DNA of 63,495 nucleotides, the filler included. It is 3 parts of 3 records of this genome, joined end to end, with 100 filler letters (N's around TTAATTAATTAA, not from the genome) between each part and the next. Parts side by side here need not be neighbours in the genome. Positions count along the whole stretch, not along the records: positions 21,234 to 47,867 come from SRR20825006_1518; 2 more parts are not named here. One strand, written 5' to 3'. A program made the translations under genes and the position numbers. Of the stretch, positions 39,060 to 63,495 are shown in pieces (the first letter of the stretch is position 1; each line of letters begins with the position of its first letter). Under the pieces are notes generated by a model. The model was not told the DNA's origin, searched no databases, and saw only the letters and a program-made list of their open reading frames with translations.

Positions 39060-39521
39060 TTATTGTTGGCGTTCTTTATTTTGCGAAGTCCCCATATCCT
39101 CACCTAATCTTTTAGGGTGTTGGTCTTCTTCTTGTAACTCATCAAAAGCTTTCTGGAAAGTGTGCATTAGCTCCATATATTTCTCTGAATCTCGATATTG
39201 AAGCTCCAATTTTCTACTAGCTAAACTTTCGTTTTGTGCCACTTTTATCATGCGGAAGAACTCGAATTGCACAATGTTTCCGTCGTGATCTAGGTAAATA
39301 TTTCCTTGTCCATCAACCGACTTATATGTGAAAGTACCTTTACCAAATCCTGTTGAACTGTGGTCAAGGTATTTGTAATAATCTTGAGGCTTTGCTGTTG
39401 CATACCCAATTGCTTTGGCAACATTCCAGCAGAAAATTTTATCGCCTTCTCGCCAATGCAAAATATCTGGATACCAAGTGTGGGGAGCTTTGCCTTTCTT
39501 TTTGTTCGTAAATAATCCCAT
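39060..39521 (-). CDS. hypothetical protein, paralog of 39521-39988
   Basis: Shares MGLFTNKKKGKAPHTWYPDILHW.EGDK..CWNV and ELQEEDQHPKRLG with its neighbour. Confidence 0.85.
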   Translation of the reverse strand: MGLFTNKKKGKAPHTWYPDILHWREGDKIFCWNVAKAIGYATAKPQDYYKYLDHSSTGFGKGTFTYKSVDGQGNIYLDHDGNIVQFEFFRMIKVAQNESLASRKLELQYRDSEKYMELMHTFQKAFDELQEEDQHPKRLGEDMGTSQNKERQQ

Positions 39522-39988
39522 TATTCTTTTTCCTTTGTTGGAAGTGATTGCTGAGCATTGTTAGGTAAAGAACCTAATCTTTTAGGATGTTGATCTTCCT
39601 CTTGTAGCTCGTTAAAAGCTTGCTGAAAACTCTTCATCAACTCCATATAGTTCTCGGTTCCTGTCACCCGATCTTGAATCATTCGGTTAACCAAACTCTC
39701 ATTTCTAGCTTTTTTAATAAATCTATAGAAATCAAATTCTAAAAGATTTTCCTTTTCGTCTTTAACAAAGATTTTTCCCTCAGAATTTACCCCAACAAAT
39801 ACGAAGTGTGCTTTTGCAAATCCGCCACCTTCAGGTGTATATCGATGTACTTCAGCCCAAGAATTTTTACCGCCTAGTGCAGTAAGAACATTCCAGCAAT
39901 ATAGTTTGTCACCTTCTTGCCAATGCAAGATATCGGGATACCAAGTATGTGGAGCTTTTCCTTTTTTCTTATTGGTGAATAAGCCCAT
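39521..39988 (-). CDS. hypothetical protein, paralog of 39060-39521
   Basis: Same termini as the neighbour; TAATG overlap with it. Confidence 0.85.
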   Translation of the reverse strand: MGLFTNKKKGKAPHTWYPDILHWQEGDKLYCWNVLTALGGKNSWAEVHRYTPEGGGFAKAHFVFVGVNSEGKIFVKDEKENLLEFDFYRFIKKARNESLVNRMIQDRVTGTENYMELMKSFQQAFNELQEEDQHPKRLGSLPNNAQQSLPTKEKE

Positions 39989-40074
39989 CTAGTCTAGTAA
40001 TTTAGGGTTGTCAGTTTCTTCGAGTTCTTTGTATGCAGTTTATGTGGCGGAATATGTTTTGAAAAAATGCCCAT
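39989..40074 (-). pseudogene. internally deleted remnant of a third paralog
   Basis: Begins MGIFSKHIPPH (ATG overlaps the paaY stop). In a shifted frame it ends TAYKELEETDNPKLLD*. These match the N- and C-termini of the two paralogs. Confidence 0.7.
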
Positions 40075-40670
40075 TATGATTTCTTTTTATTTCCCCAAGT
40101 TGAATAGTCAGCATTCTGATCTTGTCTGTCTTTTGGAATTTCCCTTAACGGCTCACATTCTATCAAGGTTTCATGCAATTCTTTTGGCAAACGTTGATAC
40201 CATCCTGTGCCTTCGGTTTTCCATTTCAGCATTTCGTCAGAGACATCTGTAATTATTTTTGAAGGATTTCCAACTACCACTTTCCTATCTGGAATTTGGG
40301 TGCCTTCCTTAACAAAAGTAAGAGCGCCAACAATACAACCAGCTCCAATTTTCACATTATCCATCACAACAGCATTCATTCCAATTAAGCAGTTTTCGCC
40401 TAAATGTGCACCGTGAATAATTGCGCCATGACCAACATGAGCTCCTTTTTCTAACAAAACCGTAGTACCAGGGAACATGTGAATGGTACAATTCTCTTGA
40501 ACATTACAGCCATCTTCGATAATAATCTTTCCCCAATCTCCACGAATCGCAGCTCCAGGTCCGATATACACATCTTTGCCGATAATCACATTTCCAGTTA
40601 CCGCCGCCAGTGGATGGATGTATGCACTTTCGTGAATTACGGGTTTGTATCCTTTGTATGAGTAAATCAT
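40074..40670 (-). CDS. paaY: phenylacetate degradation protein PaaY (gamma-carbonic anhydrase-like)
   Basis: Hexapeptide repeats, RGDWG.I...GCNVQENC..H and GHGAIIHG, in paa context. Confidence 0.9.
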   Translation of the reverse strand: MIYSYKGYKPVIHESAYIHPLAAVTGNVIIGKDVYIGPGAAIRGDWGKIIIEDGCNVQENCTIHMFPGTTVLLEKGAHVGHGAIIHGAHLGENCLIGMNAVVMDNVKIGAGCIVGALTFVKEGTQIPDRKVVVGNPSKIITDVSDEMLKWKTEGTGWYQRLPKELHETLIECEPLREIPKDRQDQNADYSTWGNKKKS

Positions 40671-40692
40671 TTTTGGTTGTGTGGGTGATTTA

Positions 40693-41114
40693 GTTATTAA
40701 GAGATTGAGTGATTAGGTTGATTTCTTGGCTTTTTTAAGGTATTGAACATAGCCATTTAAGATTTTTAAACATTCTAAAATTAGCTCATTGGTATTGTTG
40801 AACTGTTCGTCATTTATAAACCCTTCATCTTTCGCACACATTAAGTGTTCTAATGTTTCATACAGTGAGCCTCGCGCTATTCTGCAAAACTGAATGTTTT
40901 CTTGATAATGAAATCTTCCAAACCCCTCAGCAATATTTGCTGCGACAGATCTTGAAGATCGAAGTATTTGATCCTTAAGCCTAAATTTTTCATCAACAGG
41001 AAAAGATTTAGCCAACTCAGAAATGGCAAGTCTCAACCTCCTTGATGATTTCCATGATTCTAGCTCAGATAGTTTATACATGATGTAGACTCAATAACTC
41101 AATCTCTTAATAAC
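40693..41114. repeat. 18-bp perfect inverted repeat enclosing four-helix-bundle gene 1
   Basis: GTTATTAAGAGATTGAGT (40693-40710) and ACTCAATCTCTTAATAAC (41097-41114). Confidence 0.9.
40713..41081 (-). CDS. four-helix-bundle protein (23S rRNA IVS protein / TIGR02436 family)
   Basis: Motif L..W......FP.DEKF.L.DQI.RSSRSV.ANIAEGFGR.....F..IARGSL.ET. Confidence 0.92.
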   Translation of the reverse strand: MYKLSELESWKSSRRLRLAISELAKSFPVDEKFRLKDQILRSSRSVAANIAEGFGRFHYQENIQFCRIARGSLYETLEHLMCAKDEGFINDEQFNNTNELILECLKILNGYVQYLKKAKKST

Positions 41115-42339
41115 CATTAACCAGCAACGACTCCCCAACCTTCTCCAGAACAACCGCAAAGCCTTGTCCAACGCCTATACATAATGTACAAAGGGCATAT
41201 TTCGCATCTTTTCTTTCATGGAGTTCCACTGTTGCCGTTTGAAGTAACCGTGCGCCTGTCATTCCTAGAGGATGACCAAGAGCAATCGCTCCTCCATTTG
41301 GATTCAATCGTGCGTCGTCATCTTTTAAACCTAAAGTTCTAGTAACGCCTAAAGATTGACCTGCAAAGGCTTCGTTTAGCTCAATAATGTCCATATCGGC
41401 AAGTGTGAGGCCTGCTCGCTGAAGTACTTTTTGGGTTGCTTCTACAGGCCCGAGTCCCATTATACGAGGCTCAATTCCAGAAACAGCTGTCGCTACAATT
41501 CGTGATTTTGGCTTCAATCCGTATTTGTTTACGGCAGTATCTGATGCAATAAGCAAAGCCGCTGCGCCATCGTTTAATCCCGAGGCATTTCCAGCAGTTA
41601 CACTGCCATCTTTTTTGAAAGCAGGACGAAGTTTCGCTAAAATTTCTGCGGTAGTACCAGCGCGAATAAATTCATCATCCTTAAAAATAACAGGATCGCC
41701 TTTACGCTGAGGAATTTCAACAGGGACGATTTCTTTGGCAAGTCGACCAGAATTTTGTGCTGCAGCTGCTTTTTGTTGGCTCCATGCAGCAAATGCGTCT
41801 TGATCTTCGCGCGAAATATTGTGCATTTCTACTACATTTTCTGCCGTAACTCCCATGCCATCAGTTCCAAACATCTCGTGCATTTTAGGATTAACAAAAC
41901 GCCATCCAAAAGTAGAATCGTGCATTTCTGTAGTTCCGGAAAATGGAGAAGAACCTTTACCAAGAACAATCGGTCCACGAGTCATGTGTTCAACTCCTCC
42001 AGTAATAAATAAATCTCCTTCGCCCGCTTTTATAGCATGGAAAGCTCGAGCGGTGGCACTCATACCAGAAGCACAAAGTCGATTCACAGTTTCTCCAGGA
42101 ACCGAAACAGGGAGTCCCGCAAGTAAAGCCGCCATCCGAGCAACATTTCTATTGTCTTCACCTGCTTGATTTGCACATCCAAAAATCACATCCTCAATAG
42201 CCGATAGGTCAATTTCTGGATTTCTTCGTAATAATTCCTTGATTGGAATTGCCGCTAAATCATCAGTTCTAACAGGCGAAAGAGCTCCTTTTAAATTCCC
42301 AATAGGAGTTCTGATTGCGTCAATAATATAAGCGTCCAT
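41107..42339 (-). CDS. paaJ: 3-oxoadipyl-CoA / 3-oxo-5,6-dehydrosuberyl-CoA thiolase
   Basis: Motifs GEDNRNVARMA, NRLCASG, NEAFA, GGAIALGHPLG and LCIGVGQG. Confidence 0.9.
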   Translation of the reverse strand: MDAYIIDAIRTPIGNLKGALSPVRTDDLAAIPIKELLRRNPEIDLSAIEDVIFGCANQAGEDNRNVARMAALLAGLPVSVPGETVNRLCASGMSATARAFHAIKAGEGDLFITGGVEHMTRGPIVLGKGSSPFSGTTEMHDSTFGWRFVNPKMHEMFGTDGMGVTAENVVEMHNISREDQDAFAAWSQQKAAAAQNSGRLAKEIVPVEIPQRKGDPVIFKDDEFIRAGTTAEILAKLRPAFKKDGSVTAGNASGLNDGAAALLIASDTAVNKYGLKPKSRIVATAVSGIEPRIMGLGPVEATQKVLQRAGLTLADMDIIELNEAFAGQSLGVTRTLGLKDDDARLNPNGGAIALGHPLGMTGARLLQTATVELHERKDAKYALCTLCIGVGQGFAVVLEKVGESLLVNGY

Positions 42340-42800
42340 AGTATTTTGTCTTTAGTAGTGAGTATCTAGTAATATGAGAGTAGCATTACTCACTTAATTC
42401 ATCGTATTAGATAAAGAGAATATCATTTTTTGAATTTCATTTATTGAGTCAGATAGGATTGATAGAGAATCAGTGTTCAGAAAGTCTAGGTTTTTAGAAA
42501 TTATAAGTTGGGTTTCAAGTTCTGAGCAAGAGCCGTAAGCATAGTTTAGGAAAAGTTTGAATTCTTTATTTGAGTTCCTTCCTGCACCTTCAGCGATATT
42601 GGAACTAATGGATACAACACTTCTTCTTATTTGAGAAGTTAGTCCGAATTTTTCATCCTTAGGAAAGTTCTTTGTTGCTTCATAAATGTGAGTAGCAAGT
42701 TCAACAGCTTTTTGCCAAACTTTTAACTCTTTAAAATTATGCATCTTTGTACCTCCTTTTAATAAGATTTCTAAATACTAAATACTAATGTCTAAATACT
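42340..42800. repeat. imperfect 30-bp heptamer-built inverted repeat enclosing four-helix-bundle gene 2
   Basis: 42340-42369 matches the reverse complement of 42771-42800 at 24/30 positions. The upstream arm is CTAAATA CTAAATA CTAATGT CTAAATA CT. Confidence 0.8.
42394..42744 (-). CDS. four-helix-bundle protein (23S rRNA IVS protein / TIGR02436 family)
   Basis: Motif FKELKVWQKA...FP.DEKFGLTSQIRRS.VSI.SNIAEGAGR...EF..FL..A.GS..ELETQL. Confidence 0.94.
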   Translation of the reverse strand: MHNFKELKVWQKAVELATHIYEATKNFPKDEKFGLTSQIRRSVVSISSNIAEGAGRNSNKEFKLFLNYAYGSCSELETQLIISKNLDFLNTDSLSILSDSINEIQKMIFSLSNTMN

Positions 42801-43193
42801 CCTATAGACCGTCCCTCTAAATTCTGCTACAAGTTGATCCTCTTGATTGGTGATTTTGACTTTATATACACCAAGAGTTCGTCCATTCTGAATTTCTTCA
42901 GTTTCAGCGGTTAGTGTGTCGCCCACGGAGACTTTTTTGGTGTAATTGATATTGTTTTCGATGGCCACAGATGTAGCCCCTCGAGAGTTGGATGCAAAAG
43001 CGAGAGTACTATCTGCAAAGGCGAAGGTTACTCCTCCATGGCAAACTCCAAAACCATTCGTCATATCGTCACGAACAAGCATTGAAAGTTTAGCATAACC
43101 TGCTTGAATGTCTACAATTTTGACACCCAACCATTTTGAGAATGCGTCTTTCTCAAGCATTTGCTGAATTTCGGTTTTTGGATTTGTACTCAT
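42792..43193 (-). CDS. paaI: phenylacetyl-CoA thioesterase (hotdog fold)
   Basis: Motifs D.FS.WLG, M.NGFGVCHGG..F.FADS..AFASNS and VAEFRGTVY. Confidence 0.92.
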   Translation of the reverse strand: MSTNPKTEIQQMLEKDAFSKWLGVKIVDIQAGYAKLSMLVRDDMTNGFGVCHGGVTFAFADSTLAFASNSRGATSVAIENNINYTKKVSVGDTLTAETEEIQNGRTLGVYKVKITNQEDQLVAEFRGTVYRSI

Positions 43194-43218
43194 TCTTAGA
43201 AATTGACGTTGCTTGGTT

Positions 43219-44397
43219 TTATACTATCTCGTAGAAATTACGTCCTTCTCGAACCATCCGTTTTAACAGCGGATTAGGGCGATATCGTTCTTCACGATAC
43301 TCAACTTGTAATGCGGTCATCATATCGAGCACTTTAGGTAATCCAATTTCATCGGCCCAAGCAAGCAAGCCTTTTGGATAGTTTACTCCATTCTGCATCG
43401 CTAAGTCTACATCTTCTACCGAGCCAATATTCATAAATACAGCATCGCAAGCTTCGTTCATAAGCATAACCAATACTCTGTTTAGGACTTTCATGCCTAA
43501 TTCTTTGTCGGTAGTAGGTGAGGGATTTGTCGAATTTTCGCGATAATCATAAAATCCACGACCCGATTTACGACCAAGCCATCCTGCTTCTACTAATCTT
43601 TTCTGAGTGAAAGAAGGCTTAAATCTTGGATCATAATAAAACTCTTTAAAAACAGAGCTAGTCACTTCGTAGTTAACATCGTGGCCAATTAAATCCATCA
43701 GTTCAAAAGGCCCCATTCTGAATCCGCCAATTTCTTTCATCGCCCAATCTATAGTAGGAACATCTGCTACACCTTCTTCCAAGATACGAAGCGATTCTCC
43801 ATAAAAAGGTCGAGCTACTCTGTTAACGATAAATCCAGGAGTGTCTTTACTGGTAACAATCGTTTTTCCCCAAGATTTTATAAGCTCTTTTGTTTGATTT
43901 GTAACTTCGGGAGCGGTTGCAATGCCAGGAATAATTTCTACCAATTTCATTAGTGGAGCAGGATTGAAAAAATGAACTCCTAAAAAACGGCCTGATTTTT
44001 TTAATGAAGAAGAGATGGATGCAATTGAAAGGGAAGAAGTATTTGATGCAAGTATACAGTCTCGAGATACAATAGCTTCTAGCCGAGCAAAAACGTCTTT
44101 TTTTATGTCTGGATTTTCTACCACGGCTTCAATCACAAAGCCACATTCTCCAAACATGGTGATGTTGTCTACAAACTCGATTCGATTTAAAATATCATCC
44201 ACTTCTTGTTGAGACATTCGGCCTTTTTCAACTTGTCGGGCAAGAATGTTTTCAAGTGCTTTTTTGGCTTTTACAAGTTGTTCAGAGAACGCGTCATAAA
44301 TATATACTTGATGGCCATTTGTAGCTGCTACTTGTGCAATGCCAGTTCCCATTGTTCCGGCGCCAATAACGCCAATGGTTGCCTGTGTATTAGTCAT
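43219..44397 (-). CDS. paaH: 3-hydroxyadipyl-CoA dehydrogenase
   Basis: Motifs GAGTMG.GIA, SNTSSLS, HFFNPAPLM, PGFIVNRV and MGPFEL.D.IG; first gene of the paa operon. Confidence 0.9.
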   Translation of the reverse strand: MTNTQATIGVIGAGTMGTGIAQVAATNGHQVYIYDAFSEQLVKAKKALENILARQVEKGRMSQQEVDDILNRIEFVDNITMFGECGFVIEAVVENPDIKKDVFARLEAIVSRDCILASNTSSLSIASISSSLKKSGRFLGVHFFNPAPLMKLVEIIPGIATAPEVTNQTKELIKSWGKTIVTSKDTPGFIVNRVARPFYGESLRILEEGVADVPTIDWAMKEIGGFRMGPFELMDLIGHDVNYEVTSSVFKEFYYDPRFKPSFTQKRLVEAGWLGRKSGRGFYDYRENSTNPSPTTDKELGMKVLNRVLVMLMNEACDAVFMNIGSVEDVDLAMQNGVNYPKGLLAWADEIGLPKVLDMMTALQVEYREERYRPNPLLKRMVREGRNFYEIV

Positions 44398-48062: not shown

Positions 48063-48845
48063 TCACGCCCCGGCATCGCTCTCCTGCTCGGCCATCAGGC
48101 GCTGGATCTCGATGGCGTTCACGGCGAGCGTGTCCGCGCGCTCGTTGAGCGGGAGCCCCGAGTGCCCCTTGACCTTGATCAACTCGAGGTCGTCGAACTC
48201 GGCGATCAGCTTCCGCGTCTCGAGGATCAGCTCCTTGTTGGCCTTGATCTTCCAGTTTTGGGTGAGCGCGCCGATCGAGTAGCTCGAGTCGGTGTGCAGA
48301 CGCACCGGGATATCGCGCACCTCGATCGTCTGTAGCGCCACCAAAATCGCGGTCAGCTCGCCGATATTATTGGTGCCCTCGCCGAGGTACTGGCTGACCT
48401 CCTTGTAGTGATTTCCCGCGCGCAGCAGCAACCCGTAGGAGCATGGCCCCGGGTTCCCCTGACAGGCGCCATCGGTGTAGACCTCGATGATGCCTGTCTC
48501 GGGAGGATCGAGCGCGGCGAGCTCCTCGGGAACCTCCGTCGAGATGATCTTCTCGCCGGGGTCCTTGTAGCCATCGAAGGTGACGCTGCTCTTTTTCGAG
48601 GACGCCTTCTTGCTCTTTTTGGAAGAGCTCTTCTTGCCATCACCGCCAGATGAAGAGGACGAGGATGAAGAAGATGGCGCATCTGCGCCGATGTTATTGG
48701 GGTGAACGTTGTAGGTCTGCGCTTCGTCGTCGTTTTTGTAGCGCATCGGGACCATGCCGTTCTCGTCGGTGACGAGGTTGCCCTCTTCATCGACCTCGAT
48801 CCAAACCTTTTGCTTTTTCTTGAAGAATTTTCGCACCCAGGTCAC
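48063..48845 (-). CDS. rnhA: ribonuclease HI with N-terminal extra domain and Ser/Lys-rich linker
   Basis: Motifs YTDGAC.GNPGP, TNN..EL, TDS.Y and KVKGHSG...NERAD.LA. GTG start at 48845 with AGGAG RBS. Confidence 0.9.
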   Translation of the reverse strand: MTWVRKFFKKKQKVWIEVDEEGNLVTDENGMVPMRYKNDDEAQTYNVHPNNIGADAPSSSSSSSSSGGDGKKSSSKKSKKASSKKSSVTFDGYKDPGEKIISTEVPEELAALDPPETGIIEVYTDGACQGNPGPCSYGLLLRAGNHYKEVSQYLGEGTNNIGELTAILVALQTIEVRDIPVRLHTDSSYSIGALTQNWKIKANKELILETRKLIAEFDDLELIKVKGHSGLPLNERADTLAVNAIEIQRLMAEQESDAGA

Positions 48846-49159
48846 GCGTGAGTCTCCTTGTTGCAAGCGGTCGAGCGCGCCGAATGGACACGCCTGGAAT
48901 CGAGCAGCTCTATCATGCAGGCAATCATAAGTCGAACCATGCAAACGGCAAGCGCGTAACTTCAACAGACGATTCAACACATGAAACGTGTCCGCGTCAG
49001 CGTCCATGGAGTGTGACGAGGAGGCGACGAATTGGCGAAATGACTGGTGAATCAATTCTCATCCGCCGTGCATTATGGTAGTGAGAGGCGCGCTCCCAGG
49101 GGAAATCGGGTGAGAGACCCTACCCCGAGGGCGCGAGTTGCAGCATCGAAGGATTCGAG

Positions 49160-50218
49160 ATGACATCACATGATCAACGGTTGGCCGAGCGCAATAATCA
49201 CGGCCTCGTGACCACCACCCACCGCAGACGCAAGATCAACCTGGTGGATAGCGCGATGACCGCCGCGCTTGGAAGAAAGAAGTTTTTTGGCAAGGGTTGG
49301 GGCGATATCGACGCCGTCGAGCTCGTCGAGCAGCGCTTCCACGAGCAACGCACCGAGGTGCCAGACATCCACGTGCGCTGGATCACGCTCCCCTACACAC
49401 ACAATGGCATCACGCGCATGCGCGGCTACTTCGAAAGCCCGGCGAGCGCGTATCTGCCGCTCCCCCCCGAGACGCGCGCCGCCTACTTCGAGCTGTTGCT
49501 CCCTGAGGGCGCGGGCGTGACGCTCAAGCCGCCGGTGTGTTTGCATCTGGCGAGCACCGGCGAACAAGGGATGGCGAGGCGCACGCGCTTTGCCACGCCG
49601 TTGATCGAGCGCGGCGTCGGCGCGTTGATTCTGGAGAACCCATATTACGGCATCCGGCGCCCTCGCGGGCAAAAGGGTGTGAGCCTTCTAACCGTCGCGG
49701 ATCAGTTGATGATGTGCATGGCGACGGTCGAGGAGGCGCGCGCGCTCCTGAAGTGGCTGCGCCGCGATGGCTACAAACACCTTGGCGTGAGCGGCTATAG
49801 CATGGGCGGCTCGATGGCGGCCTATGTCGCCGCGCTCGAAGACGAACCGATCGCCGCCGTTCCGATCTCTGCAGGCGCGTCCTCCTCCTCGATCTTCACC
49901 GGCTCTCCAATGGCGCGTTATACGGATTGGCGCGCGTTGGGTGGCAAGGATAGTCGCGAGCTCTTGCGCGGCGTCCTCGACGCGCTCTCACTCGAGCTGC
50001 TTCCAAAACCTGCTGCGCCGGAGCTCGCCATCCTCGTCTCGGGCACACGCGACAGCGTCGTCGCCCCAGACACCGTGCACGCGCTCGCGAACCACTGGGG
50101 GAGCGAGATCCGCTGGTATGACTCCGGTCATATCGCGGGCTACGTGCTCCGCCGAGAGTTCTTCCACGACGCGATCCTCGACGCGTTCGGCATGTTGATG
50201 GTCCACCAGGAGAAGTGA
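49160..50218 (+). CDS. alpha/beta hydrolase, ABHD18/DUF2048-like
   Basis: Motifs FF.KGWG, LENPYYG.R.P..Q, GYSMGG nucleophile, D..V and GH. Confidence 0.85.
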   Translation: MTSHDQRLAERNNHGLVTTTHRRRKINLVDSAMTAALGRKKFFGKGWGDIDAVELVEQRFHEQRTEVPDIHVRWITLPYTHNGITRMRGYFESPASAYLPLPPETRAAYFELLLPEGAGVTLKPPVCLHLASTGEQGMARRTRFATPLIERGVGALILENPYYGIRRPRGQKGVSLLTVADQLMMCMATVEEARALLKWLRRDGYKHLGVSGYSMGGSMAAYVAALEDEPIAAVPISAGASSSSIFTGSPMARYTDWRALGGKDSRELLRGVLDALSLELLPKPAAPELAILVSGTRDSVVAPDTVHALANHWGSEIRWYDSGHIAGYVLRREFFHDAILDAFGMLMVHQEK

Positions 50219-50393
50219 GCCTCGCGCTCGATACGGCACTCGCCATCGCTCGTTCGCATGGGCGTGATACGCGACCGTTGCGCTCTGTGCGGCGATCGGG
50301 GATAACAGGGCATCGAAACACACGAGGAGTCTTCCTCTCCCCGACATGCCACCGAGCGCGCACCGCGCGTGAGGATCAAGGACAAGGAGCCGT

Positions 50394-51326
50394 ATGGAAG
50401 CGAGCGCGTTGGATGATGTGAACCTTCCCCCCCGAACAAAGCAAAGGCTCGGCGATCTATGCGAGCAGCTCGCGCGCACGCTGGGGGAGGACTTCGTCGG
50501 CGCGCTCCTGTATGGGAGCGCGGCGCGCGAGGACTGGGAAGAAGGCGCGAGTGACATCAACCTGATGATCGTCTCCAAGCGCGCGCAGCTCCAGCAATGC
50601 GCTTCGATCACGCGCGCCTTGCGAAAGGCGCAGCGCGCCTTGCCGCTGCACGCAGAGATCATCACGCCGCGAGATCTGCAACGCTCGGCGGATGTGTTCC
50701 CGCTCAAGTTTCTGGATATCCAACGCAATCACATGGTGCTCGTCGGCGAAGATCCTCTCGAGGGGGTCGAGATCGCCTGGGATCACTTGAGGCTTCGGGT
50801 CGAGCAGGAGCTCAAGAGCGTGATGTTCACCCTGCGACGCCACTACCTGATTTACGAGCAACAGCCCGACCAGTTGGTGCGCACGATGAGCGAACAACTG
50901 AGCGCGTTTCTGATTGGCCTCGGCGCGTTGATGTTCTTGCGCGATGGGCAGTGGTGGCTCTCCGGCAAGGAGACCATCGCGCGCGCGGTCCCGGAGAGCT
51001 TCGGACTCGATGAGGGGTTGATCGACAGCCTGCTGGCGTTGAAGCGGCGCGAGCTCGAGCTCGACCCGGAAGAGCTCCAGGTGCTCTATGGCGCATTTAT
51101 GATCGCCGCAGAAGAGGTCGCCGATATCGTCGACCGCCTGGGTGACGAGGAAGACTCGCGAGCGCAGGAGCAAGAAGACACCTCCTCCGCATCCTCGGAT
51201 ACGGAGGAGGAGGACACCACGCCCCTCGAGGAAGAAGGCGAACTGGTGATGCCAGTGGTCGAGCCGGAGATCGTCGAAGAAGACGCGCAGGATGAGCTGG
51301 CCGAAGTCTCACAGGAGGCCTCATGA
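50394..51326 (+). CDS. Pol-beta-like nucleotidyltransferase-domain protein with acidic tail
   Basis: Motifs LYGSAAR....SDINL, DVFP..F.DI...H..L.G.DP and LR...EQEL. Confidence 0.75.
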   Translation: MEASALDDVNLPPRTKQRLGDLCEQLARTLGEDFVGALLYGSAAREDWEEGASDINLMIVSKRAQLQQCASITRALRKAQRALPLHAEIITPRDLQRSADVFPLKFLDIQRNHMVLVGEDPLEGVEIAWDHLRLRVEQELKSVMFTLRRHYLIYEQQPDQLVRTMSEQLSAFLIGLGALMFLRDGQWWLSGKETIARAVPESFGLDEGLIDSLLALKRRELELDPEELQVLYGAFMIAAEEVADIVDRLGDEEDSRAQEQEDTSSASSDTEEEDTTPLEEEGELVMPVVEPEIVEEDAQDELAEVSQEAS

Positions 51327-52177
51327 GCATCATCTTCGAGAACGCGTTGGCGACGCTCGATGCTGGCGCCTACCTGGGCATCTACACCCTGGGGGTTGGT
51401 GCAGCAGCGGCGGCTTTGTTTATGCGCCGTCAGAAAAGCGACGAGACATTGGGGATGAGAGTCCCCGAGATCCCTGACGAGCTGGACGCTTACGAGTTGG
51501 CCTATCTGAACGGCGGCATCCGCGAGCTCTCGAGGTTGGTGGTCTTTGATCTGGCGCGTCGTGGCTGGCTCGAGATGTTCGAGGAGTCGAGCATGTTTGG
51601 CGATGATCACTATCTAAAGCGCGCCGCGGATCACCCTCCGGTGAATCTGCTCCGACCGATCGAGCGAGAGGTCTGGGATCTTATCGACGGGACGGTGTTG
51701 TTGAGCAACCTGATGGGGACCATCGATCTACCAGCGCACCTCGAACCGTTCGCCTCGGACTATCACACGCGGCTCTCCAAGAAGAAGATGATGCTCGATG
51801 ACCAGCAGCGATCCTCGGAAGAGACGCTCGCCGCAGGCGCGATGGTGGCCGTGATGGCGCCAGGCGTGTATCGGATGCTCATCGCGATGCAGGCGCGCAC
51901 CGAGGAGTGGCTCGCGTTTCTCATCTGGGCGCTGCTCTCGGGGTTGGTGGTGTGGTTTTGTGCCAGGCCGAGGTTTCGCACAGACCTCGGCGATCGCTAC
52001 CTCGATGTGTTGAGGCGTGAATTCGACGCGATGCGCGATCACATGCACATCTGGGGAGAGGCCGCCGCGGCGCACACCTCCACGCTTGCGGCGTTGTTTG
52101 GAGCGCGCTCCGTGCTCACGGGCACGGCGGCAGCAGAGCTCGAATACGCGCGCCGGAAAGCACAATCAAACCCGTGA
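51323..52177 (+). CDS. TIGR04222-domain membrane protein
   Basis: Motif LDAYELAYL.GG..R+...L...G.L, TM segments, RT..G..YL; ATGA overlap with the upstream gene. Confidence 0.7.
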   Translation: MSIIFENALATLDAGAYLGIYTLGVGAAAAALFMRRQKSDETLGMRVPEIPDELDAYELAYLNGGIRELSRLVVFDLARRGWLEMFEESSMFGDDHYLKRAADHPPVNLLRPIEREVWDLIDGTVLLSNLMGTIDLPAHLEPFASDYHTRLSKKKMMLDDQQRSSEETLAAGAMVAVMAPGVYRMLIAMQARTEEWLAFLIWALLSGLVVWFCARPRFRTDLGDRYLDVLRREFDAMRDHMHIWGEAAAAHTSTLAALFGARSVLTGTAAAELEYARRKAQSNP

Positions 52178-52312
52178 GTAGCGGCTCTTCCTCGGATTTG
52201 ATATACATCCAACGAGCCCACAGCCAATCACGACGTGCGCATCAGGTATCAATGTCGCCTGAGCATCACACCTTGCCGCCCGTCCAACCCCGAAATCAGG
52301 AGCGAGAAGTTC

Positions 52313-53623
52313 ATGGCCGAAGAGATCCTGCTCGACTACAAGATCAACCGCCCCAATGTCTCGACCGAGCGCCAGGAAACCGACCTCAAGGTGCTGCTCA
52401 AGATCAACGCCTCGAACGCGCTGCGCGCCGGTGGCGGCGAGGTCGAGCTCTCCTCGCACATCGCGCTGGTGTTGGACGTCTCTTCCTCGATGCGCTCGCG
52501 TGAGCTCGACGCGCTCAAGCAGGCTGCCAAGGCCGCCGTCGCCGAGCTTCGCCCTGGCGACTTCGTGACCGTGATCGCCTTCCAGTCGGTGGCCTACGAG
52601 ATCGTGGAGCCAACCCGCATCGAGAGCCCTTCGACCAAGGCCGCCATCTCCTCCAAGATCGAGATCATCGATCAGTACCAGGGTGGCGGCACGGATATGG
52701 AGCACGCGCTCACGAAAGCGGAGCACGCGCTCACGGTGATTCCTGGCGACAACCTCGTGCGACGCATCATGGTGTTCACCGATGGCCAAGTGACGGGCGT
52801 GCCAGAGAGCTGCCTGGATCGCGCGCGTGAAATTAGCGGGCGCGGCTTTGGCATCGACGCGATGGGCTTCGGGCAAGAGTTCGACTACAAGTTCATGCAG
52901 CGCCTCGTCTCGTTCTCCAACGGGTACACCGAGAAGATCGATCGCCCCGAGGAGATCGCGCAGGTCTTCGCCAGACGCGTCAAGGCGGTGACCTCCTCGA
53001 TCGCAAAGAACGTCAGGCTAGACCTGACGTTCACACCGCAGGTGCGCGCGAAGCGTGGGTATCGCTATAGCCCCGAGATCGCCTACCTCGGCAAGATCAA
53101 GCTCCCCGGTGACGCGCGCACGATCTCGATCCCGATCGGAGAGGTCGAGAAGGACAAGGAGTACGCCTACCTGGTGAGCCTGACGATCCCCAAGCGAGAG
53201 GCGGGCAACATCCGCGTCATCAAGGCGGAGTTGTTCTATGACATCCCATCGATGCAGATCGAGGGAGGCAACAGCTTGCAGTCCGTGATCGTGAACTACA
53301 CGGGTGACGCGCAGCTGGTCAACGAGCTCAACGGCGAGGCCGAGCGAGCCTTCGACGAGGTCGAGATCGGTCGCCTGGTGGAAGGTCTCGATCGCGCCAT
53401 GGAGCGCAACGAGTCGAGCGACGTGGCCAAGTTCTTCGACGCCCTGAGCGAGCGTTACCGCGAGCTCGGCGATGATGACATGTCGGACCACTACATCCAG
53501 CTCAAGAACAAGTACGCCGCGCAAGGGATGATCTCTCAGGAGGACATGAACTTCACGCGTCACAAGGCCACGCAGAAGCGCTCGAGCGGTGTTCAGCTCG
53601 TCGATGCGTCGAGCCTGATCTAG
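52313..53623 (+). CDS. von Willebrand factor A domain protein
   Basis: MIDAS DVSSSM, GGTDM, FTDG, GFG.EFD. ATG 52313 has an AGGAG RBS. Confidence 0.9.
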   Translation: MAEEILLDYKINRPNVSTERQETDLKVLLKINASNALRAGGGEVELSSHIALVLDVSSSMRSRELDALKQAAKAAVAELRPGDFVTVIAFQSVAYEIVEPTRIESPSTKAAISSKIEIIDQYQGGGTDMEHALTKAEHALTVIPGDNLVRRIMVFTDGQVTGVPESCLDRAREISGRGFGIDAMGFGQEFDYKFMQRLVSFSNGYTEKIDRPEEIAQVFARRVKAVTSSIAKNVRLDLTFTPQVRAKRGYRYSPEIAYLGKIKLPGDARTISIPIGEVEKDKEYAYLVSLTIPKREAGNIRVIKAELFYDIPSMQIEGGNSLQSVIVNYTGDAQLVNELNGEAERAFDEVEIGRLVEGLDRAMERNESSDVAKFFDALSERYRELGDDDMSDHYIQLKNKYAAQGMISQEDMNFTRHKATQKRSSGVQLVDASSLI

Positions 53624-53717
53624 AGCCGCGCCAAACCCGAAGCAAGCAAGCAAACCACTTTCCCCTCGTATCATCGCGCGGCTGCAGCGTCGTCGCGCAA
53701 GACAGGAGTCAAACGAC

Positions 53718-54851
53718 ATGTCCGATTTCATCACTTGCCCTGTGTGTGAGACCGCGAACCAACCGGACGCGACCAACTGCGAGGTCTGTGGCGAGCGCCT
53801 CGCGCCCTTGCAGCCTGGCGAAGAGCTCAACCCTGAAGAGAACGTCTCGGCGATGCTCGCCGCACAGGCAGAGGAGGCAGCCGCTGCACCTCAGCCCGCC
53901 GAAGAGCCTGTGCCCATGGCGAGTGGTTTCGACGTCGATGATGAGGATGACTACGATCCGATCGCCGAGGGCGACGCCCCTGTAGACACCATGATGGAAG
54001 AAGCTCCAGCGGCACCGGCGGCTGACGAGGAGTTGATGGGGATCGATCCTGTGGACGAGCCCGTCTCGTTCTACGGTGATGACGCTCCAGACGTCCTCTA
54101 CTCTCCCACGACCGGCGAGGCATATCCCAAGGGAACCGCCGAGTACGAGGAAGGTTTCGGGCCGATGGGCGAGCAGCTCGTGGCGACCCCACCCGCTCAG
54201 GCCGCCGAGGCCGAGGCGGTGCAGCAACCAGAAGCCGAGGAGCAAGCATCCTTCGAGGGTGGTTATGACGATGAGGACGATCTGAGCCTCGCGCCATCGA
54301 CTGACCCCGAAGACGAAGAGCCATCACTCGTGGGCTTCGATGGTGATGACACCGGCGAAGAAGAGGCGCCATCGTTCGATGATGACGATGAGCTCGACGC
54401 AGGTGTTGTCCCAGCGGGCGCGACCACAGATGTCGACCCCGCAGAGGTCGAGAAGGCGAACCCCTTCCGCGTCTCCGGGCCAAACCCGGCGGTGGTGTTG
54501 CCAAAGCCTGGCACTTACGCAGAGCCCGCCTCGGTGACGCTTTATTACCAGAAGCAACCTGTGCTCACGCACGACATCGAGACTGACGAGACCTTGATCG
54601 GGCGCAAGGATATCCGCGCGGATATCTACCCCGACATCGACCTCTCGCAGTATGACCCGGAGTCTTTTGTCTCGCGCAAGCACGCCTACATCTACAGGCA
54701 GAACAAGAACTATACGCTGTACGCGATCTCCAACGGTGGCGTGCAGCTCAACAGCGATCTGCTCGAGCTGGGCGACAAGCGCCAGCTCTCGGACGGGGAC
54801 GTGATCGTGATCGCGGGCTTCCTCGCGTTTAAATTCTCCAAAGGCGCCTGA
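53718..54851 (+). CDS. zinc ribbon - long acidic linker - FHA domain protein
   Basis: N-terminal CPVC...CEVCG, D/E/P-rich middle, FHA IGR...PDIDL...VSRKHA...SNGG. Confidence 0.88.
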   Translation: MSDFITCPVCETANQPDATNCEVCGERLAPLQPGEELNPEENVSAMLAAQAEEAAAAPQPAEEPVPMASGFDVDDEDDYDPIAEGDAPVDTMMEEAPAAPAADEELMGIDPVDEPVSFYGDDAPDVLYSPTTGEAYPKGTAEYEEGFGPMGEQLVATPPAQAAEAEAVQQPEAEEQASFEGGYDDEDDLSLAPSTDPEDEEPSLVGFDGDDTGEEEAPSFDDDDELDAGVVPAGATTDVDPAEVEKANPFRVSGPNPAVVLPKPGTYAEPASVTLYYQKQPVLTHDIETDETLIGRKDIRADIYPDIDLSQYDPESFVSRKHAYIYRQNKNYTLYAISNGGVQLNSDLLELGDKRQLSDGDVIVIAGFLAFKFSKGA

Positions 54852-54863
54852 TAGGTTCAGTTC

Positions 54864-55838
54864 ATGCCAAGCTTTCCTTTCAAGCTCGGAGCCGGTGGCC
54901 GGTATCAGGTCGAGCGCGTCTTCGCGGACAGTGGCGGGATGGGCATCCTCTACCACGCTCGCGATACGCGATGCGCGGGTAACGAGGTCCTGATCAAGAC
55001 GACGCGATACGACGGCGGCGAGCACGCGCGCCACTTTCGTTACACGCGCGATGAGGCGGTCAAGCACGTCGAGGCCACGCGTAAGATCCTCGAGTGGGAG
55101 AAGAAGGTCCTCGCGCGCTTTCGCGGCGAGGGCTTGAACAACCTCCCCTCCCCCAATGACTTCTTCTATGACAGGAGCTCCACGTTGGAGCCTCGTTACG
55201 AGGGCCAGCATGGTGCCTTCGCGCTCTCGGACGATTTGCTCGGGAGCGAACCTTACCTGGTGATGGAGAAGATCCATGGCGAGGTGCTCGAGAATGTCAT
55301 GGGAGATGACGCGTGGCGCGAGCGGTTGGAGTGGCGGTTGCTGACGATGAGTCGGGAGCTGCTCACGATCTTTATCAAGATCCACAAACGCATCGACATC
55401 AACGGTCGGCCAGCCTGCTTTATTTATCAGGACCTCAAGCCTGCAAACATCCTGGTCTCGGCCACGGATTACTTCACGCTGATCGACTTCGGCGCGGTCA
55501 CGCTAAAGCTCGGCGAGAAGACCACCGAGCCGACCGCGGGCTGTATCACGCCGGGTTACGCAGCGCCCGAGGCGTCGCACGGACGCGAGGCGCAGATCGA
55601 CCCGAGGTTTGACCTCTACACGCTCGGCGCGACGCTCTGGCAAGCGGTCACGTTGCAGGACCCTCGCGAGATGGGCGAGGACTTCCCCACGCTCGATCCG
55701 AAGGCGATGATGGGCAAGGGTGTCTCGGGCGACTTCATCACGCTCGTCGCCAAGGCGCTCTCTCGCGATCCCGAGCAGCGCTATTCGATGGCGGCGACGA
55801 TGCGCAAGGACGTGATGAACCTGCTGCGAAACTTCTAG
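54864..55838 (+). CDS. Hanks-type Ser/Thr protein kinase (soluble, non-RD)
   Basis: Motifs GGMG, VLIK, YQDLKPANI, DFG, TPGYAAPE and DLYTLG. Confidence 0.93.
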   Translation: MPSFPFKLGAGGRYQVERVFADSGGMGILYHARDTRCAGNEVLIKTTRYDGGEHARHFRYTRDEAVKHVEATRKILEWEKKVLARFRGEGLNNLPSPNDFFYDRSSTLEPRYEGQHGAFALSDDLLGSEPYLVMEKIHGEVLENVMGDDAWRERLEWRLLTMSRELLTIFIKIHKRIDINGRPACFIYQDLKPANILVSATDYFTLIDFGAVTLKLGEKTTEPTAGCITPGYAAPEASHGREAQIDPRFDLYTLGATLWQAVTLQDPREMGEDFPTLDPKAMMGKGVSGDFITLVAKALSRDPEQRYSMAATMRKDVMNLLRNF

Positions 55839-55850
55839 GACATTGTTCCA

Positions 55851-55935
55851 AGGCATCACGACGACAAGAAAGAGAAGAGGCGACGCTGTTTTCGAAACAA
55901 CGTCGCCTCTTCTCTTTCTTGCTGTCGTGATGCCT
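55851..55935. repeat. ~85-bp near-perfect palindrome (likely bidirectional terminator)
   Basis: AGGCATCACGAC..CAAGAAAGAGAAGAGGCGACG.TGTTT pairs with AAACA.CGTCGCCTCTTCTCTTTCTTG..GTCGTGATGCCT. Confidence 0.85.
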
Positions 55936-55954
55936 GACTGGCAGTGCCTTTAAA

Positions 55955-57043: not shown

Positions 57044-57186
57044 TTCGATTCCTCATCTATGCTTCTCGGAGGAGAGATGCGCCAGGGCGCGCCAGCTCGC
57101 TCCGTGTTGTTTCTATCGCAGGTCCTTCATGATCCTGGCTTTAAGCGATGCGCTCACCGTCAGGATCATGAGTGGCGCTGTGCGTC

Positions 57187-57549
57187 TTAGAGGGACTCGG
57201 AGCGAAGCTCGTCGATGCGAGCCTCGAGCTTCTCGAGGTCTTGCTTGGTGGAGGCGCGTTCGGCGTAGGCGAGCGCGAGCTCGGCGTCAGCTTCGGCGCG
57301 GTCGAGGTAGTAGCGTGCTCGGTCGTGCTCTTCTTCGGCGATGAGCTTGTCTGCGTGCTCGAGGTTCTCCTCGGCGTACTGCATGTAAAGCGACGCCTGT
57401 TGATTCTCGGTCGTACCGACCTGACGAGCCGCCGCGAGCGTCTCGCGAGGCTCGGAGTATTCCTTCGACGTCACCGACGGAGACGCGCACCCCGAAGCAA
57501 CGAGCAAAACCAACGAACCACCAGCAACCATTCGATTAAGATCAAACAT
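57187..57549 (-). CDS. DUF4398 lipoprotein
   Basis: Lipobox ASGC and motif A..YL.RAEADAELALA. ATG 57549 has a GAGGAG RBS. Typical partner upstream of the OmpA gene. Confidence 0.8.
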   Translation of the reverse strand: MFDLNRMVAGGSLVLLVASGCASPSVTSKEYSEPRETLAAARQVGTTENQQASLYMQYAEENLEHADKLIAEEEHDRARYYLDRAEADAELALAYAERASTKQDLEKLEARIDELRSESL

Positions 57550-57779
57550 TCCATTCTCCTCATCATCTATCACGAATGCAGGAAGTGCGCTGTTTTCAAC
57601 GCGTTCCTCACATCCCATCGTGCTCACCAGAGATCGTAAAGACGCACAATGGCACAACAAGAACTTTTTTCTGGAATAGGCTCCTCGGGCAGCATTCAAG
57701 GGCCTATCCGCGCATTCACACGAGATCAGGATCGCCAGTCCGAGGGAGGGCTTTTGATGGATTTTGCGGCAAGCGGCGC

Positions 57780-57862: not shown

Positions 57863-57905
57863 TCAGCAGCGTCGCGATGCGGCGAGACAGCGCTCACACC
57901 GAGAG

Positions 57906-58535: not shown

Positions 58536-58568
58536 GGATAGCGTTGCTGCTCCAGTGGAGCTTGTATC

Positions 58569-62420: not shown

Positions 62421-63495
<1,075 letters not shown>

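What the first reader, a model, noticed from the sequence alone, without database searches (positions are those of the whole stretch)
40671..42800. Two inverted-repeat-enclosed four-helix-bundle cassettes inside the paa mRNA: candidate mRNA intervening-sequence / selfish element system
Seen in sequence: two divergent four-helix-bundle genes sit at different junctions (paaJ|paaY and paaI|paaJ) of one operon. Each is co-oriented with the operon and enclosed by its own inverted repeat built from 7-8-nt units. In both, the 5' arm contains the stop codon of the upstream paa gene and the 3' arm ends near the start of the next paa gene. On the transcript, each cassette could fold into a long stem with the ORF in the loop, bringing the flanking paa genes together. 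Established: this family (TIGR02436/23S_rRNA_IVP, structurally related to DGR Avd) is encoded inside RNase III-excised 23S rRNA intervening sequences of Leptospira and Coxiella. Inference: these are IVS-like elements transplanted into mRNA. They may be processed, used to tune downstream translation, or spread by an unknown mechanism, since no transposase or reverse transcriptase is nearby.
Basis: partly seen in the sequence, partly recalled or inferred. Interest (0 to 1): 0.85.

Follow-up and report, generated by a model that had tools for sequence, protein, structure and literature searches.

The report
Heptamer-armed four-helix-bundle cassettes in paa operon

Summary
The window is a composite. 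The finding lies in its 38-40% G+C middle part, a Balneolaceae contig. Two TIGR02436/PF05635 genes (37% identical) fill the paaI|paaJ and paaJ|paaY junctions. Each is bracketed by its own inverted arms, 34 nt at 79% and 22 nt at 95% complementarity, built of 7-8-nt units. The arms hold the upstream stop codon.

This bracket is typical of the family. In 76 distinct cassettes from this phylum the flanks pair with their own partner far better than with other cassettes' flanks, with a 7-nt period. A blind scan finds such repeats about 113 times more often around these genes than elsewhere.

Among relatives the junctions are filled, empty, scarred (arms without gene) or hold broken genes. Both genes are under purifying selection (dN/dS 0.04-0.08). 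Arms vary by whole heptamers in public assemblies.

Best reading: rRNA-IVS-type cassettes resident in an mRNA, tolerated because the arms pair. RNase III cutting is inferred, not shown, because no RNA data were available. A test of RNA-level against DNA-level pairing was inconclusive.

I found no paper linking the family to such arms outside rRNA. This scan's earlier notes report the same build on other DNA in over 500 genomes.

The parts
42792..43193 (-). paaI (hydroxyphenylacetyl-CoA thioesterase). Its stop codon 42792-42794 lies inside the 5' arm of cassette 2.
   Evidence: TIGR02286, 127.2 bits, cut-off 118.9. ORF.
42767..42800 (-). Cassette 2, 5' arm: an array of 7-nt units (TAGTATT type on the transcript).
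   Evidence: Inverted repeat I1, 34 nt, 79% complementary. TRF period 7, 4.3 copies, 42771-42800. A 7-nt insertion after 42770 in a contig of run X6.
42394..42744 (-). fhb2, a 116-aa four-helix-bundle protein. An AGGAGG sequence lies 7 nt before its ATG, in the loop rather than in the stem.
   Evidence: TIGR02436 131.3 bits, PF05635 142.2 bits. PDB 2gsc_A, E 1.6e-20. dN/dS 0.079 against L012. Sequence read.
42340..42373 (-). Cassette 2, 3' arm. It ends one base before the paaJ ATG (42339-42337), and that ATG is paired in the predicted fold.
   Evidence: In one search positions 465-477 of the folded stretch are paired in the minimum-energy structure, and the ATG occupies positions 472-474.
41107..42339 (-). 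paaJ/pcaF-type 3-oxoadipyl-CoA thiolase. Its last 9 codons and stop codon (41107-41109) are supplied by the 5' arm region of cassette 1.
   Evidence: TIGR02430, 632.9 bits, cut-off 597. The empty site in L012 ends the protein at ...LEKV, whereas the window reads on as ...EKVGESLLVNGY.
41093..41114 (-). Cassette 1, 5' arm.
   Evidence: Inverted repeat I1, 22 nt, 95% complementary. TRF period 8, 41089-41114. A 7-nt unit inserted after 41110 in contigs of runs X2 and X3, and a 7-nt gap against L009 placed by the aligner at 41124.
40713..41081 (-). fhb1, a 122-aa four-helix-bundle protein.
   Evidence: TIGR02436 111.3 bits, PF05635 115.2 bits. dN/dS 0.042 against L014.
40693..40714 (-). Cassette 1, 3' arm. 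It overlaps the fhb1 stop codon and ends 22 nt before the paaY ATG.
   Evidence: A 20-bp terminal stem appears in both the minimum-energy and the centroid fold, z -3.08.
40074..40670 (-). paaY-like hexapeptide-repeat protein.
   Evidence: Best match TIGR02287 PaaY, 225.3 bits, which is below that model's cut-off of 319.6.

Best explanation
Each cassette is a unit made of one functional PF05635/TIGR02436 gene and two inverted arrays of 7-8-nt units. It is the same kind of element as the ORF-bearing intervening sequences of 23S rRNA, but it sits at a junction between cistrons.

SHOWN. The family membership is shown. The arms are specific to each cassette. The arms have a 7-nt period. This packaging is typical of the family in this phylum. 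The cassettes are co-oriented with the operon. Related genomes differ at these junctions: filled, empty or scarred. Whole heptamers are gained and lost in the arms. Both ORFs are under purifying selection.

INFERRED. The cassette is transcribed with the paa operon. On that RNA the arms pair and loop out the roughly 400-nt gene, so the paa cistrons stay functional. This is why such an insert is tolerated both in rRNA and in operons.

The perfect 20-bp helix of cassette 1 (22-nt arms, 95% complementary) is the kind of duplex that RNase III cuts in the rRNA versions. Cutting there would separate the paaJ, fhb1 and paaY messages. The looser stem of cassette 2 also hides the paaJ start codon. Ribosomes that finish paaI inside the 5' arm would open that stem.

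The protein is kept by selection, so it presumably acts on the heptamer arrays, its own and gene-less ones. What it does there is unknown.

MY ODDS. About 0.9 that these are members of this cassette class with selected arms. About 0.4 that RNase III processes them in the mRNA. About 0.25 that the protein binds the arrays.
For: FAMILY..

ARMS ARE SPECIFIC TO EACH CASSETTE.
- 30 Balneolaceae cassettes: own-partner score 27.0 against 14.5 for other partners; 22 of 30 exceed the 95th percentile of mismatched pairs.
- 17 Flavobacteriia-side cassettes: 31.8 against 16.0; 12 of 17.
- 28 cassettes from a phylum-wide sample: 26.6 against 14.7; 16 of 28.
- RNA duplex energy of matched flanks is -36.8 against -25.1 kcal/mol, Mann-Whitney p 4e-8.

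BLIND SCAN. Over 27,015 positions, 26 of the 40 repeat pairs scoring at least 30 are centred on the 434 positions that hold these genes. That is about 113-fold enrichment.

PERIOD. Autocorrelation at lag 7 is 0.405 upstream and 0.396 downstream, against about 0.29 in the flanks at other lags and 0.28 inside the ORF. Lag 7 is the best lag in 26 of 49 upstream and 24 of 49 downstream flanks. The phylum sample repeats this.

GEOMETRY. 61 of 76 distinct cassettes are co-oriented with both neighbours. Among the 49 with arm score of at least 24:
- the upstream stop codon is inside the arm in 14 of 41 and 1-20 nt before it in 19 of 41;
- the downstream ATG lies within -10 to +25 nt of the 3' arm end in 28 of 43.

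TURNOVER.
- L012 has an empty paaJ|paaY site.
- L010 keeps 33-nt arms around a 121-nt loop with no gene, and these arms match the arms of the L153 and L014 cassettes.
- L011 has a frameshifted copy.
- 6 of 37 HMM hits are truncated.

SELECTION. dN/dS is 0.042 for fhb1 and 0.079 for fhb2, against 0.04-0.09 for paaJ.

HEPTAMER INDELS. They fall exactly in the arms.

FOLDS.. No terminator-like site lies in or at either cassette.

RNase III. The gene is present in the three Balneolaceae genomes searched. In the Coxiella IVS a 28-bp terminal-repeat stem is cut mid-stem by RNase III, with tandem GACAGAT heptamers before the ORF (PMC4990558, passages read).
Against: - No RNA evidence exists for this DNA, so co-transcription, pairing and cutting are all inferences.
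- The overall fold energy of cassette 2 is not unusual: z -0.49, and 28 of 100 shuffles fold at least as well.
- The strand test gave 39 G.U against 26 A.C mismatches in 35 cassettes (p 0.14). A signature of pairing in the sense RNA is therefore not demonstrated.
- A simple stem does not need a 7-nt period, so the stem idea leaves the period unexplained.
- Arms are weak or absent in part of the family: 8 of 30, 5 of 17 and 12 of 28 cassettes do not exceed the 95th percentile of mismatched pairs.
- Of 4 cyanobacterial plasmid copies only 1 has a repeat scoring at least 24. One (L166) has direct, not inverted, heptamer arrays on both sides.
Confidence: 0.55

Rival explanations
1. The stems are a device of the host operon. 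They set relative expression of the paa cistrons through translational coupling or differential mRNA stability. The small protein is an RNA-binding regulator recruited by the host, so the unit is not a selfish or mobile cassette.
For: - The 3' arm abuts or covers the downstream start: cassette 2 pairs the paaJ ATG, and this holds for 28 of 43 cassettes.
- The upstream stop lies in or just before the 5' arm in 33 of 41 cassettes.
- The ORFs are under purifying selection.
- Orthologous junctions stay occupied across genomes.
- Heptamer arrays ending next to start codons were proposed as translational regulators in Beggiatoaceae (PMC4679880, passages read).
Against: - The same junction is empty or scarred in close relatives whose paa operon is intact.
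- Copies decay: 6 of 37 are truncated.
- Cassettes sit in many unrelated operons, and 15 of 76 are not co-oriented with both neighbours.
- The start of paaY is not sequestered by cassette 1.
Confidence: 0.2
2. The arms act in DNA, not RNA. They would be hairpins or binding arrays in single-stranded or double-stranded DNA, used for recombination, replication-linked copying or spread. This would be comparable in logic to REP/RAYT, IS200/IS605 ends or integron attC sites. The protein, or a host enzyme, would work on them.
For: - The G.U excess expected for an RNA stem is not significant (39 against 26, p 0.14).
- Arrays change by whole units, which is slippage, a DNA process.
- Gene-less hairpins and single arrays of the cassette-2 unit are dispersed in related genomes: G002 has 22 matches against 4 for the control pattern, G003 has 13 against 3.
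- Between the window and L009 both cassettes are about ten times less diverged than the genes around them: 2 mismatches in 461 nt and 2 in 444 nt, against 4.3-6.2% in the flanks.
Against: - No recombinase, transposase or reverse transcriptase was seen next to the cassettes.
- Arms differ between copies, unlike the ends of a transposon family.
- Cassettes are strongly co-oriented with transcription, 61 of 76, which a purely DNA-level element would not need.
- The low divergence rests on one genome pair that is a mosaic of near-identical and diverged tracts. Other pairs did not show it: the Winogradskyella cassettes are less alike than their flanks.
Confidence: 0.18
3. The repeats are chance complementarity in A+T-rich intergenic DNA next to ordinary small genes.
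For: The segment is A+T-rich at 38-40% G+C. The fold of cassette 2 as a whole is no more stable than its shuffles.
Against: - Matched flanks beat mismatched flanks in three separate samples.
- The blind scan shows about 113-fold enrichment.
- The flanks have a 7-nt period that is absent inside the ORFs.
- The orthologues compared (L010 to L014, L140, L153) keep complementarity while the unit sequence changes.
Confidence: 0.02
4. The genes are Avd accessory proteins of a diversity-generating retroelement.
For: fhb2 gives weak hits to the Avd models: NF033474 at 37.3 bits and PF22296 at 35.6 bits.
Against: - Both hits are below their cut-offs of 80 and 40 bits.
- The flanking genes are paa genes, and no reverse transcriptase was found among the ORFs scanned.
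- fhb2 has no match in 50,697 phage records at the E-value limit of 1e-5.
Confidence: 0.01

Closest known systems
ORF-bearing intervening sequences (IVS) of 23S rRNA, as in Coxiella burnetii helix 45 and in Leptospira (PMC4990558, passages read; the older Leptospira and Salmonella papers are known to me only through its citations)
   Same: A PF05635 'S23p' ORF of about 120 aa. Terminal inverted repeats that form a stem around it. Tandem heptamers directly upstream of the ORF whose copy number differs between strains. An element size of about 430-460 nt.
   Different: The host transcript here is a polycistronic mRNA, not rRNA. The arms overlap a stop codon and abut a start codon. The ORFs here are under purifying selection, whereas the Coxiella ORF is described as decaying and probably untranslated. 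RNase III excision is shown there and untested here.
Unexplained intergenic heptamer repeats: TAACTGA in Beggiatoaceae, cyanobacteria and some Bacteroidetes (PMC4679880); GGGAATC in Xanthomonas and GGGGATT in Nostoc (PMC4692102)
   Same: Arrays with a 7-nt period in intergenic DNA. They often end next to a start codon or overlap the end of the upstream ORF. In Xanthomonas 70 convergent pairs are reported.
   Different: In the passages my term searches returned, neither paper links the repeats to a four-helix-bundle gene. The terms 'S23', 'intervening' and 'four helix' did not occur in PMC4692102, and '23S' did not occur in PMC4679880. Here the arrays come as cassette-specific inverted pairs around such a gene.
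Xcc0516 of Xanthomonas campestris (PDB 2GSC) and DGR Avd
   Same: fhb2 matches 2gsc_A at E 1.6e-20, an entry with 5 chains. The family is described as pentamers of four-helix bundles (PMC4990558 and PMC10053308, passages read).
   Different: No function is known for Xcc0516. Avd works with a reverse transcriptase, and none is present here.
Pairs of autonomous elements and MITE-like or REP-like hairpins
   Same: Gene-less hairpins built of the same heptamer unit as the cassette-2 arms occur at other gene junctions in related genomes. Chryseobacterium paa operons likewise have gene-less hairpins that share the unit of the resident cassette.
   Different: There is no transposase. The arms are not conserved among gene-bearing copies. 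Cassette 1 has no such dispersed partners.

Membership tests
PF05635 / TIGR02436 (23S rRNA intervening-sequence protein; four helix bundle protein) | Profile score above the curated cut-off over the whole domain | tested here: met
   TIGR02436: 111.3 and 131.3 bits, cut-off 24. PF05635: 115.2 and 142.2 bits, cut-off 33.8, covering profile positions 2-106 and 1-105 of 106.
PF05635 / TIGR02436 | Relative of a solved four-helix-bundle pentamer | tested here: met
   fhb2 against 2gsc_A, E 1.6e-20, and 2rld_A, E 1.2e-05; each entry has 5 chains. This is a sequence match only. The oligomeric state of these two proteins was not tested.
ORF-bearing 23S rRNA intervening sequence | Inserted in a 23S rRNA gene | tested here: not met
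   The cassettes are flanked by paaI, paaJ and paaY. No Rfam family was found in window 21200-48100 or in 20 loci of Balneolaceae copies.
ORF-bearing 23S rRNA intervening sequence | Terminal inverted repeats that close a stem around the ORF | tested here: met
   The pairing is specific to each cassette.
ORF-bearing 23S rRNA intervening sequence | Tandem heptamers next to the ORF with variable copy number | tested here: met
   Period 7 and 8 arrays. Lag-7 signal in the flanks. 7-nt insertions in both 5' arms in public contigs, and a 7-nt gap against L009.
ORF-bearing 23S rRNA intervening sequence | Excision from the transcript by RNase III | not testable with these tools
   No RNA run was listed for this DNA. 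An RNase III gene is present in G002, G003 and G004, which allows cutting but does not show it.
Diversity-generating retroelement (Avd accessory protein) | Avd profile above cut-off, with an adjacent reverse transcriptase and template/variable repeats | tested here: not met
   NF033474 at 37.3 bits against a cut-off of 80, and PF22296 at 35.6 against 40. No reverse transcriptase was found among the operon genes or the 10 ORFs scanned. Template and variable repeats were not searched for.
Transposon or MITE | A transposase, and terminal repeats shared among copies | tested here: not met
   No transposase was seen. Arms differ between non-orthologous copies. Target-site duplications were not examined.

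The most novel reading that the evidence does not exclude
The gene plus its arms is a self-contained genetic element with its own gene flow. The ring-forming protein would recognise runs of its cognate heptamer, in its own arms and in gene-less hairpins elsewhere in the genome. The cassette would be copied into, or exchanged at, the same inter-cistronic site by a homing-like conversion that drags along a few dozen bases of the neighbouring genes.

Three observations point this way:
- Both cassettes are about 99.5% identical between the window and L009, in tracts of 532 and 555 nt, while the paa genes around and between them differ by 4-6%.
- Protein clade and arm type change together while the host thiolase stays equally distant.
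- Arrays of the cassette-2 unit are dispersed without a gene.

If true, this would link three things: the 30-year-old puzzle of the rRNA-IVS protein, the excess of heptamer repeats in bacteria, and a new way for genes to lodge inside operons.
Probability: 0.25. Interest if true: 0.85.

Novelty: new variant of a known kind. Interest (0 to 1): 0.68.

Why it matters
The PF05635/TIGR02436 family is very common. It occurs in 119 of 151 sampled genomes of this phylum, with up to 19 copies each. It has had no function since it was found inside rRNA intervening sequences.

The gene normally travels with inverted 7-nt arrays and lodges exactly between cistrons, where it comes, goes and leaves scars. 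This gives concrete experiments on what the protein binds, whether RNase III excises it from mRNAs, and whether operon expression depends on the stem.

It also offers an origin for some of the unexplained intergenic heptamer repeats described in several phyla.

Six full-text searches found no paper that links the family to such arms outside rRNA. Subscription-journal papers and supplements were not searchable.

Tried and rejected
RNA EVIDENCE. No RNA holder was listed for window 40000-43300, so nothing can be said about expression or processing.

READS. Contigs of four DNA runs laid on the stretch showed no joint that skips a whole cassette. Contigs drop rare variants, so this does not exclude cassette-free alleles.

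OWN GENOME. The window's own assembly is not held. The 'nearest' genome G001 matches only the unrelated 56% G+C part of the window. It has no TIGR02436 gene and no paa match, so it was useless as an empty-site control.

STRAND TEST. G.U against A.C gave 39 against 26, p 0.14, which is inconclusive.

CASSETTE LESS DIVERGED THAN ITS FLANKS, AS A GENERAL RULE. This is not general.
- Chryseobacterium pairs give 81-83% for the cassette against 76-90% for the flanks.
- The Winogradskyella pair gives 66% against 78-80%.
- The Aequorivita/Flavobacteriaceae pair gives 71% against 56-79%.

The window-L009 pair is itself a mosaic: 75 of 486 windows of 450 nt have at most 2 mismatches.

CASSETTE-1 UNIT AS A DISPERSED FAMILY. 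Only the cassette itself matches. Other matches equal the control counts.

KNOWN RNA FAMILIES, tRNAs AND TERMINATORS. None was found at the cassettes.

PHAGES. No match.

PLASMIDS. 29 records, mostly cyanobacteria. Of the 4 I inspected only 1 has inverted arms.

NOT PURSUED. That note is marked as having partly fallen. My own data only show that protein clade and arm type change together, which common descent of the whole cassette would also give.

I did not predict a structure or a complex. The pentamer could not be modelled within the limit on copies.
Full report
SETTING

The window is not one piece of genome. G+C is about 56% up to about 21.1 kb, 38-40% from about 21.2 to 48.1 kb, and about 60% after that. 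The first part is 98% identical to genome G001. The paa segment and the last part are not. G001 has no TIGR02436 gene.

The thiolase of the middle part is 97% identical to that of an uncultured Balneolaceae genome (L009) and 84-90% identical to five other Balneolaceae or Balneola loci. The finding therefore belongs to a roughly 27-kb Balneolaceae contig.

This contig holds ordinary metabolic and sensor genes. I saw no transposase, integrase or reverse transcriptase in the 10 of 14 ORFs of at least 120 aa that I scanned for 21.0-33.1 kb, nor among the paa genes. It has no Rfam family and no tRNA.

THE OBSERVATION

On the minus strand the order is paaH, paaI, fhb2, paaJ, fhb1, paaY-like, two paralogous genes of unknown function, paaZ and an enoyl-CoA hydratase.

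Both small genes are clear members of TIGR02436 and PF05635. fhb2 matches the solved Xanthomonas protein 2GSC at E 1.6e-20. The two are only 37% identical to each other.

Each is enclosed by its own inverted repeat: 22 nt at 95% complementarity for cassette 1 and 34 nt at 79% for cassette 2. The arms are built from units of period 8 and 7.

The stop codons of paaJ and paaI lie inside the 5' arms. The 3' arm of cassette 2 ends one base before the paaJ ATG. The 3' arm of cassette 1 ends 22 nt before the paaY ATG.

Predicted folds close both cassettes with the terminal stem, in the minimum-energy and in the centroid structure. In cassette 2 the paaJ start codon is paired. The overall energy is unusual for cassette 1 (z -3.08) but not for cassette 2 (z -0.49). 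No terminator-like site lies in or at the cassettes.

IS IT MORE THAN CHANCE, AND IS IT TYPICAL OF THE FAMILY?

Three Balneolaceae genomes hold 6, 9 and 13 copies. I compared each cassette's upstream 80 nt with the reverse complement of its own downstream 80 nt, and with those of all other cassettes. Three samples gave the same answer.
- 30 Balneolaceae cassettes: own partners score 27.0, others 14.5 (sd 3.6). 22 of 30 exceed the 95th percentile of mismatched pairs. Every mismatched pair at or above the 99th percentile was an orthologous pair. RNA duplex energies agree (p 4e-8).
- 17 full-length cassettes in paa loci of Chryseobacterium, Aequorivita, Winogradskyella and others: 31.8 against 16.0, and 12 of 17.
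- 28 cassettes from a sample of 151 genomes of the phylum: 26.6 against 14.7, and 16 of 28.

A blind scan of about 1.1 Mb for repeat pairs 360 nt apart put 26 of the 40 best pairs on the 1.6% of positions that hold these genes. I inspected seven of the top-scoring hits that did not lie on an annotated fhb gene. They were:
- three pairs of gene-less heptamer hairpins around paaB;
- one fhb pseudogene;
- three other small genes flanked by inverted repeats.

The flanks have a 7-nt period that is absent inside the ORFs.

The window's geometry is the usual one. 61 of 76 distinct cassettes are co-oriented with both neighbours. Among well-armed cassettes the upstream stop lies in or within 20 nt before the 5' arm in 33 of 41. 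The downstream ATG lies within -10 to +25 nt of the 3' arm end in 28 of 43.

There are exceptions. A third or more of cassettes in each sample lack a strong repeat. Of four cyanobacterial plasmid copies only one has inverted arms, and one has direct heptamer arrays on both sides.

EVOLUTION

The two junctions differ among the Balneolaceae loci.
- L009, L013 and L014 have both cassettes.
- L012 lacks the paaJ|paaY cassette. There paaJ ends at ...LEKV and a 90-nt spacer with a different 20-nt hairpin follows.
- L010 lacks the gene at paaI|paaJ but keeps 33-nt arms around a 121-nt loop. These arms match the arms of the L153 and L014 cassettes.
- L011 has a frameshifted fhb2.
- L010 and L014 have extra cassettes at other paa junctions.

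Six of 37 family hits in 81 sources are truncated.

Where a cassette is present, the upstream protein reads into the arm for 0-9 extra residues in paaJ, and for up to about 20 in paaI of L013.

Both ORFs are under purifying selection: dN/dS 0.042 and 0.079, against 0.04-0.09 for paaJ. Arms change faster than the proteins yet stay complementary.

The paaI|paaJ cassettes fall into two groups. One has TAGTATT-type arms (window, L012, L140; proteins 72-79% identical). The other has TAAGAT-type arms (L013, L014, L153; 60-74%). Identity between the groups is 54-63%. The adjacent thiolases are uniformly 84-89% identical.

Public assemblies carry one extra 7-nt unit in the 5' arm of cassette 1 (runs X2, X3) and of cassette 2 (run X6). 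L009 differs from the window by a 7-nt gap at the same arm of cassette 1.

A SUGGESTIVE ODDITY

Between the window and L009 the cassettes have 2 mismatches in 461 nt and 2 in 444 nt, with no synonymous change in either ORF. By contrast paaI, paaJ and paaY differ by 4.5, 4.3 and 6.2%.

The low-divergence tracts (42275-42806 and 40642-41196) run 6-82 nt into the flanking genes. They are the only such windows inside the diverged 39-44.4 kb block.

Three caveats apply. The pair is a mosaic elsewhere (75 of 486 windows). The other assemblies laid share many variants with L009, so they are not independent. Other genus pairs do not show the effect. A metagenome assembly that switches strains cannot be fully excluded. 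I treat this as a lead for cassette-specific exchange, not as a result.

GENE-LESS PARTNERS

Arrays of the cassette-2 unit occur well above the control count in G002 (22 against 4) and G003 (13 against 3), but not in G004 (1 against 11). They include convergent pairs that form short gene-less hairpins at gene junctions, and also single arrays. The cassette-1 unit has no such family.

In Chryseobacterium paa operons, gene-less hairpins flanking paaB share their unit with the resident cassette.

MECHANISM

The anatomy matches the Coxiella IVS. That element has a 28-bp stem of terminal repeats cut mid-stem by RNase III, with tandem GACAGAT units of variable number before the S23p start (PMC4990558, passages read). 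RNase III is encoded in the three Balneolaceae genomes searched.

The most economical reading is an IVS-type cassette whose pairing arms make it harmless to the host transcript. Cassette 1 is a likely RNase III substrate. Cassette 2 additionally masks the paaJ start until ribosomes finishing paaI open the 5' arm.

All RNA-level steps are inferred, because no RNA run was available. The G.U against A.C test does not separate RNA pairing from DNA symmetry. The 7-nt period and the selection on the protein point to a protein-array interaction that a plain stem does not explain.

LITERATURE

Six full-text searches found papers on four topics:
- the rRNA IVS;
- the family as Avd-like (PMC10053308);
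- family ORFs scattered in rRNA insertions of CPR bacteria (bioRxiv 10.1101/2024.02.27.582315);
- unexplained intergenic heptamer repeats (PMC4679880 and PMC4692102).

None ties the family to inverted heptamer arms outside rRNA. I read passages only, not whole papers. Supplements were closed.

The scan's own earlier notes describe the same build on other DNA in more than 500 genomes. I used them as leads and re-tested their main points here.

Noticed in passing
window 1-21100, 21200-48100, 48100-63495: The window is a compositional three-part composite (56%, 38-40% and 60% G+C). Only the first part matches genome G001, at 98%. It looks like contigs of different organisms joined together, or a contaminated assembly.
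   Followed up: partly
window 39060-39521 and 39521-39988 (minus strand): Two paralogous genes of 153 and 155 aa lie between paaY and paaZ. They have no Pfam or NCBIfam match. Their copy number varies from 1 to 4 among Balneolaceae paa operons.
   Followed up: no
L093-L096, L104, L105, L107, L112, L116 (upstream of stand-alone cassettes); G003 and G004 genome-wide: A conserved motif, GTAAGGAATT then 8-14 nt then GTCTTAC, usually after a run of T, lies 30-60 nt upstream of many family genes. It occurs 9 times in G003, 13 times in G004 (7 identical copies), not at all in G002, and never for the control pattern. It may be a promoter or another repeat element.
   Followed up: partly
L059:2901-3460; L042:10981-11540; L048:11181-11740: Other small genes sit in paa-locus junctions of Flavobacteriia inside their own, non-heptamer inverted repeats. 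By my reading of the translations, one has a DUF559-like endonuclease fold and two look like GIY-YIG nucleases. No family search was run on them.
   Followed up: no
L018:781-1340, L021:1341-1900, L031:461-1020: In Chryseobacterium, paaB is flanked on both sides by gene-less hairpins of TTTGAAAAT-type units. These are the same unit as the arms of the four-helix-bundle cassette further along the operon.
   Followed up: partly
L166 (Pseudanabaena plasmid NZ_CP112875.1, 45668-47191): A family gene between cas6 and cas4 is flanked by long direct arrays of two related heptamers, more than 10 copies on each side, rather than by inverted arms.
   Followed up: no
L012:8206-8262: The empty paaJ|paaY site of this Balneola genome holds a different 20-nt, 80% complementary hairpin. 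It could be an unrelated structure or the relic of another element.
   Followed up: no
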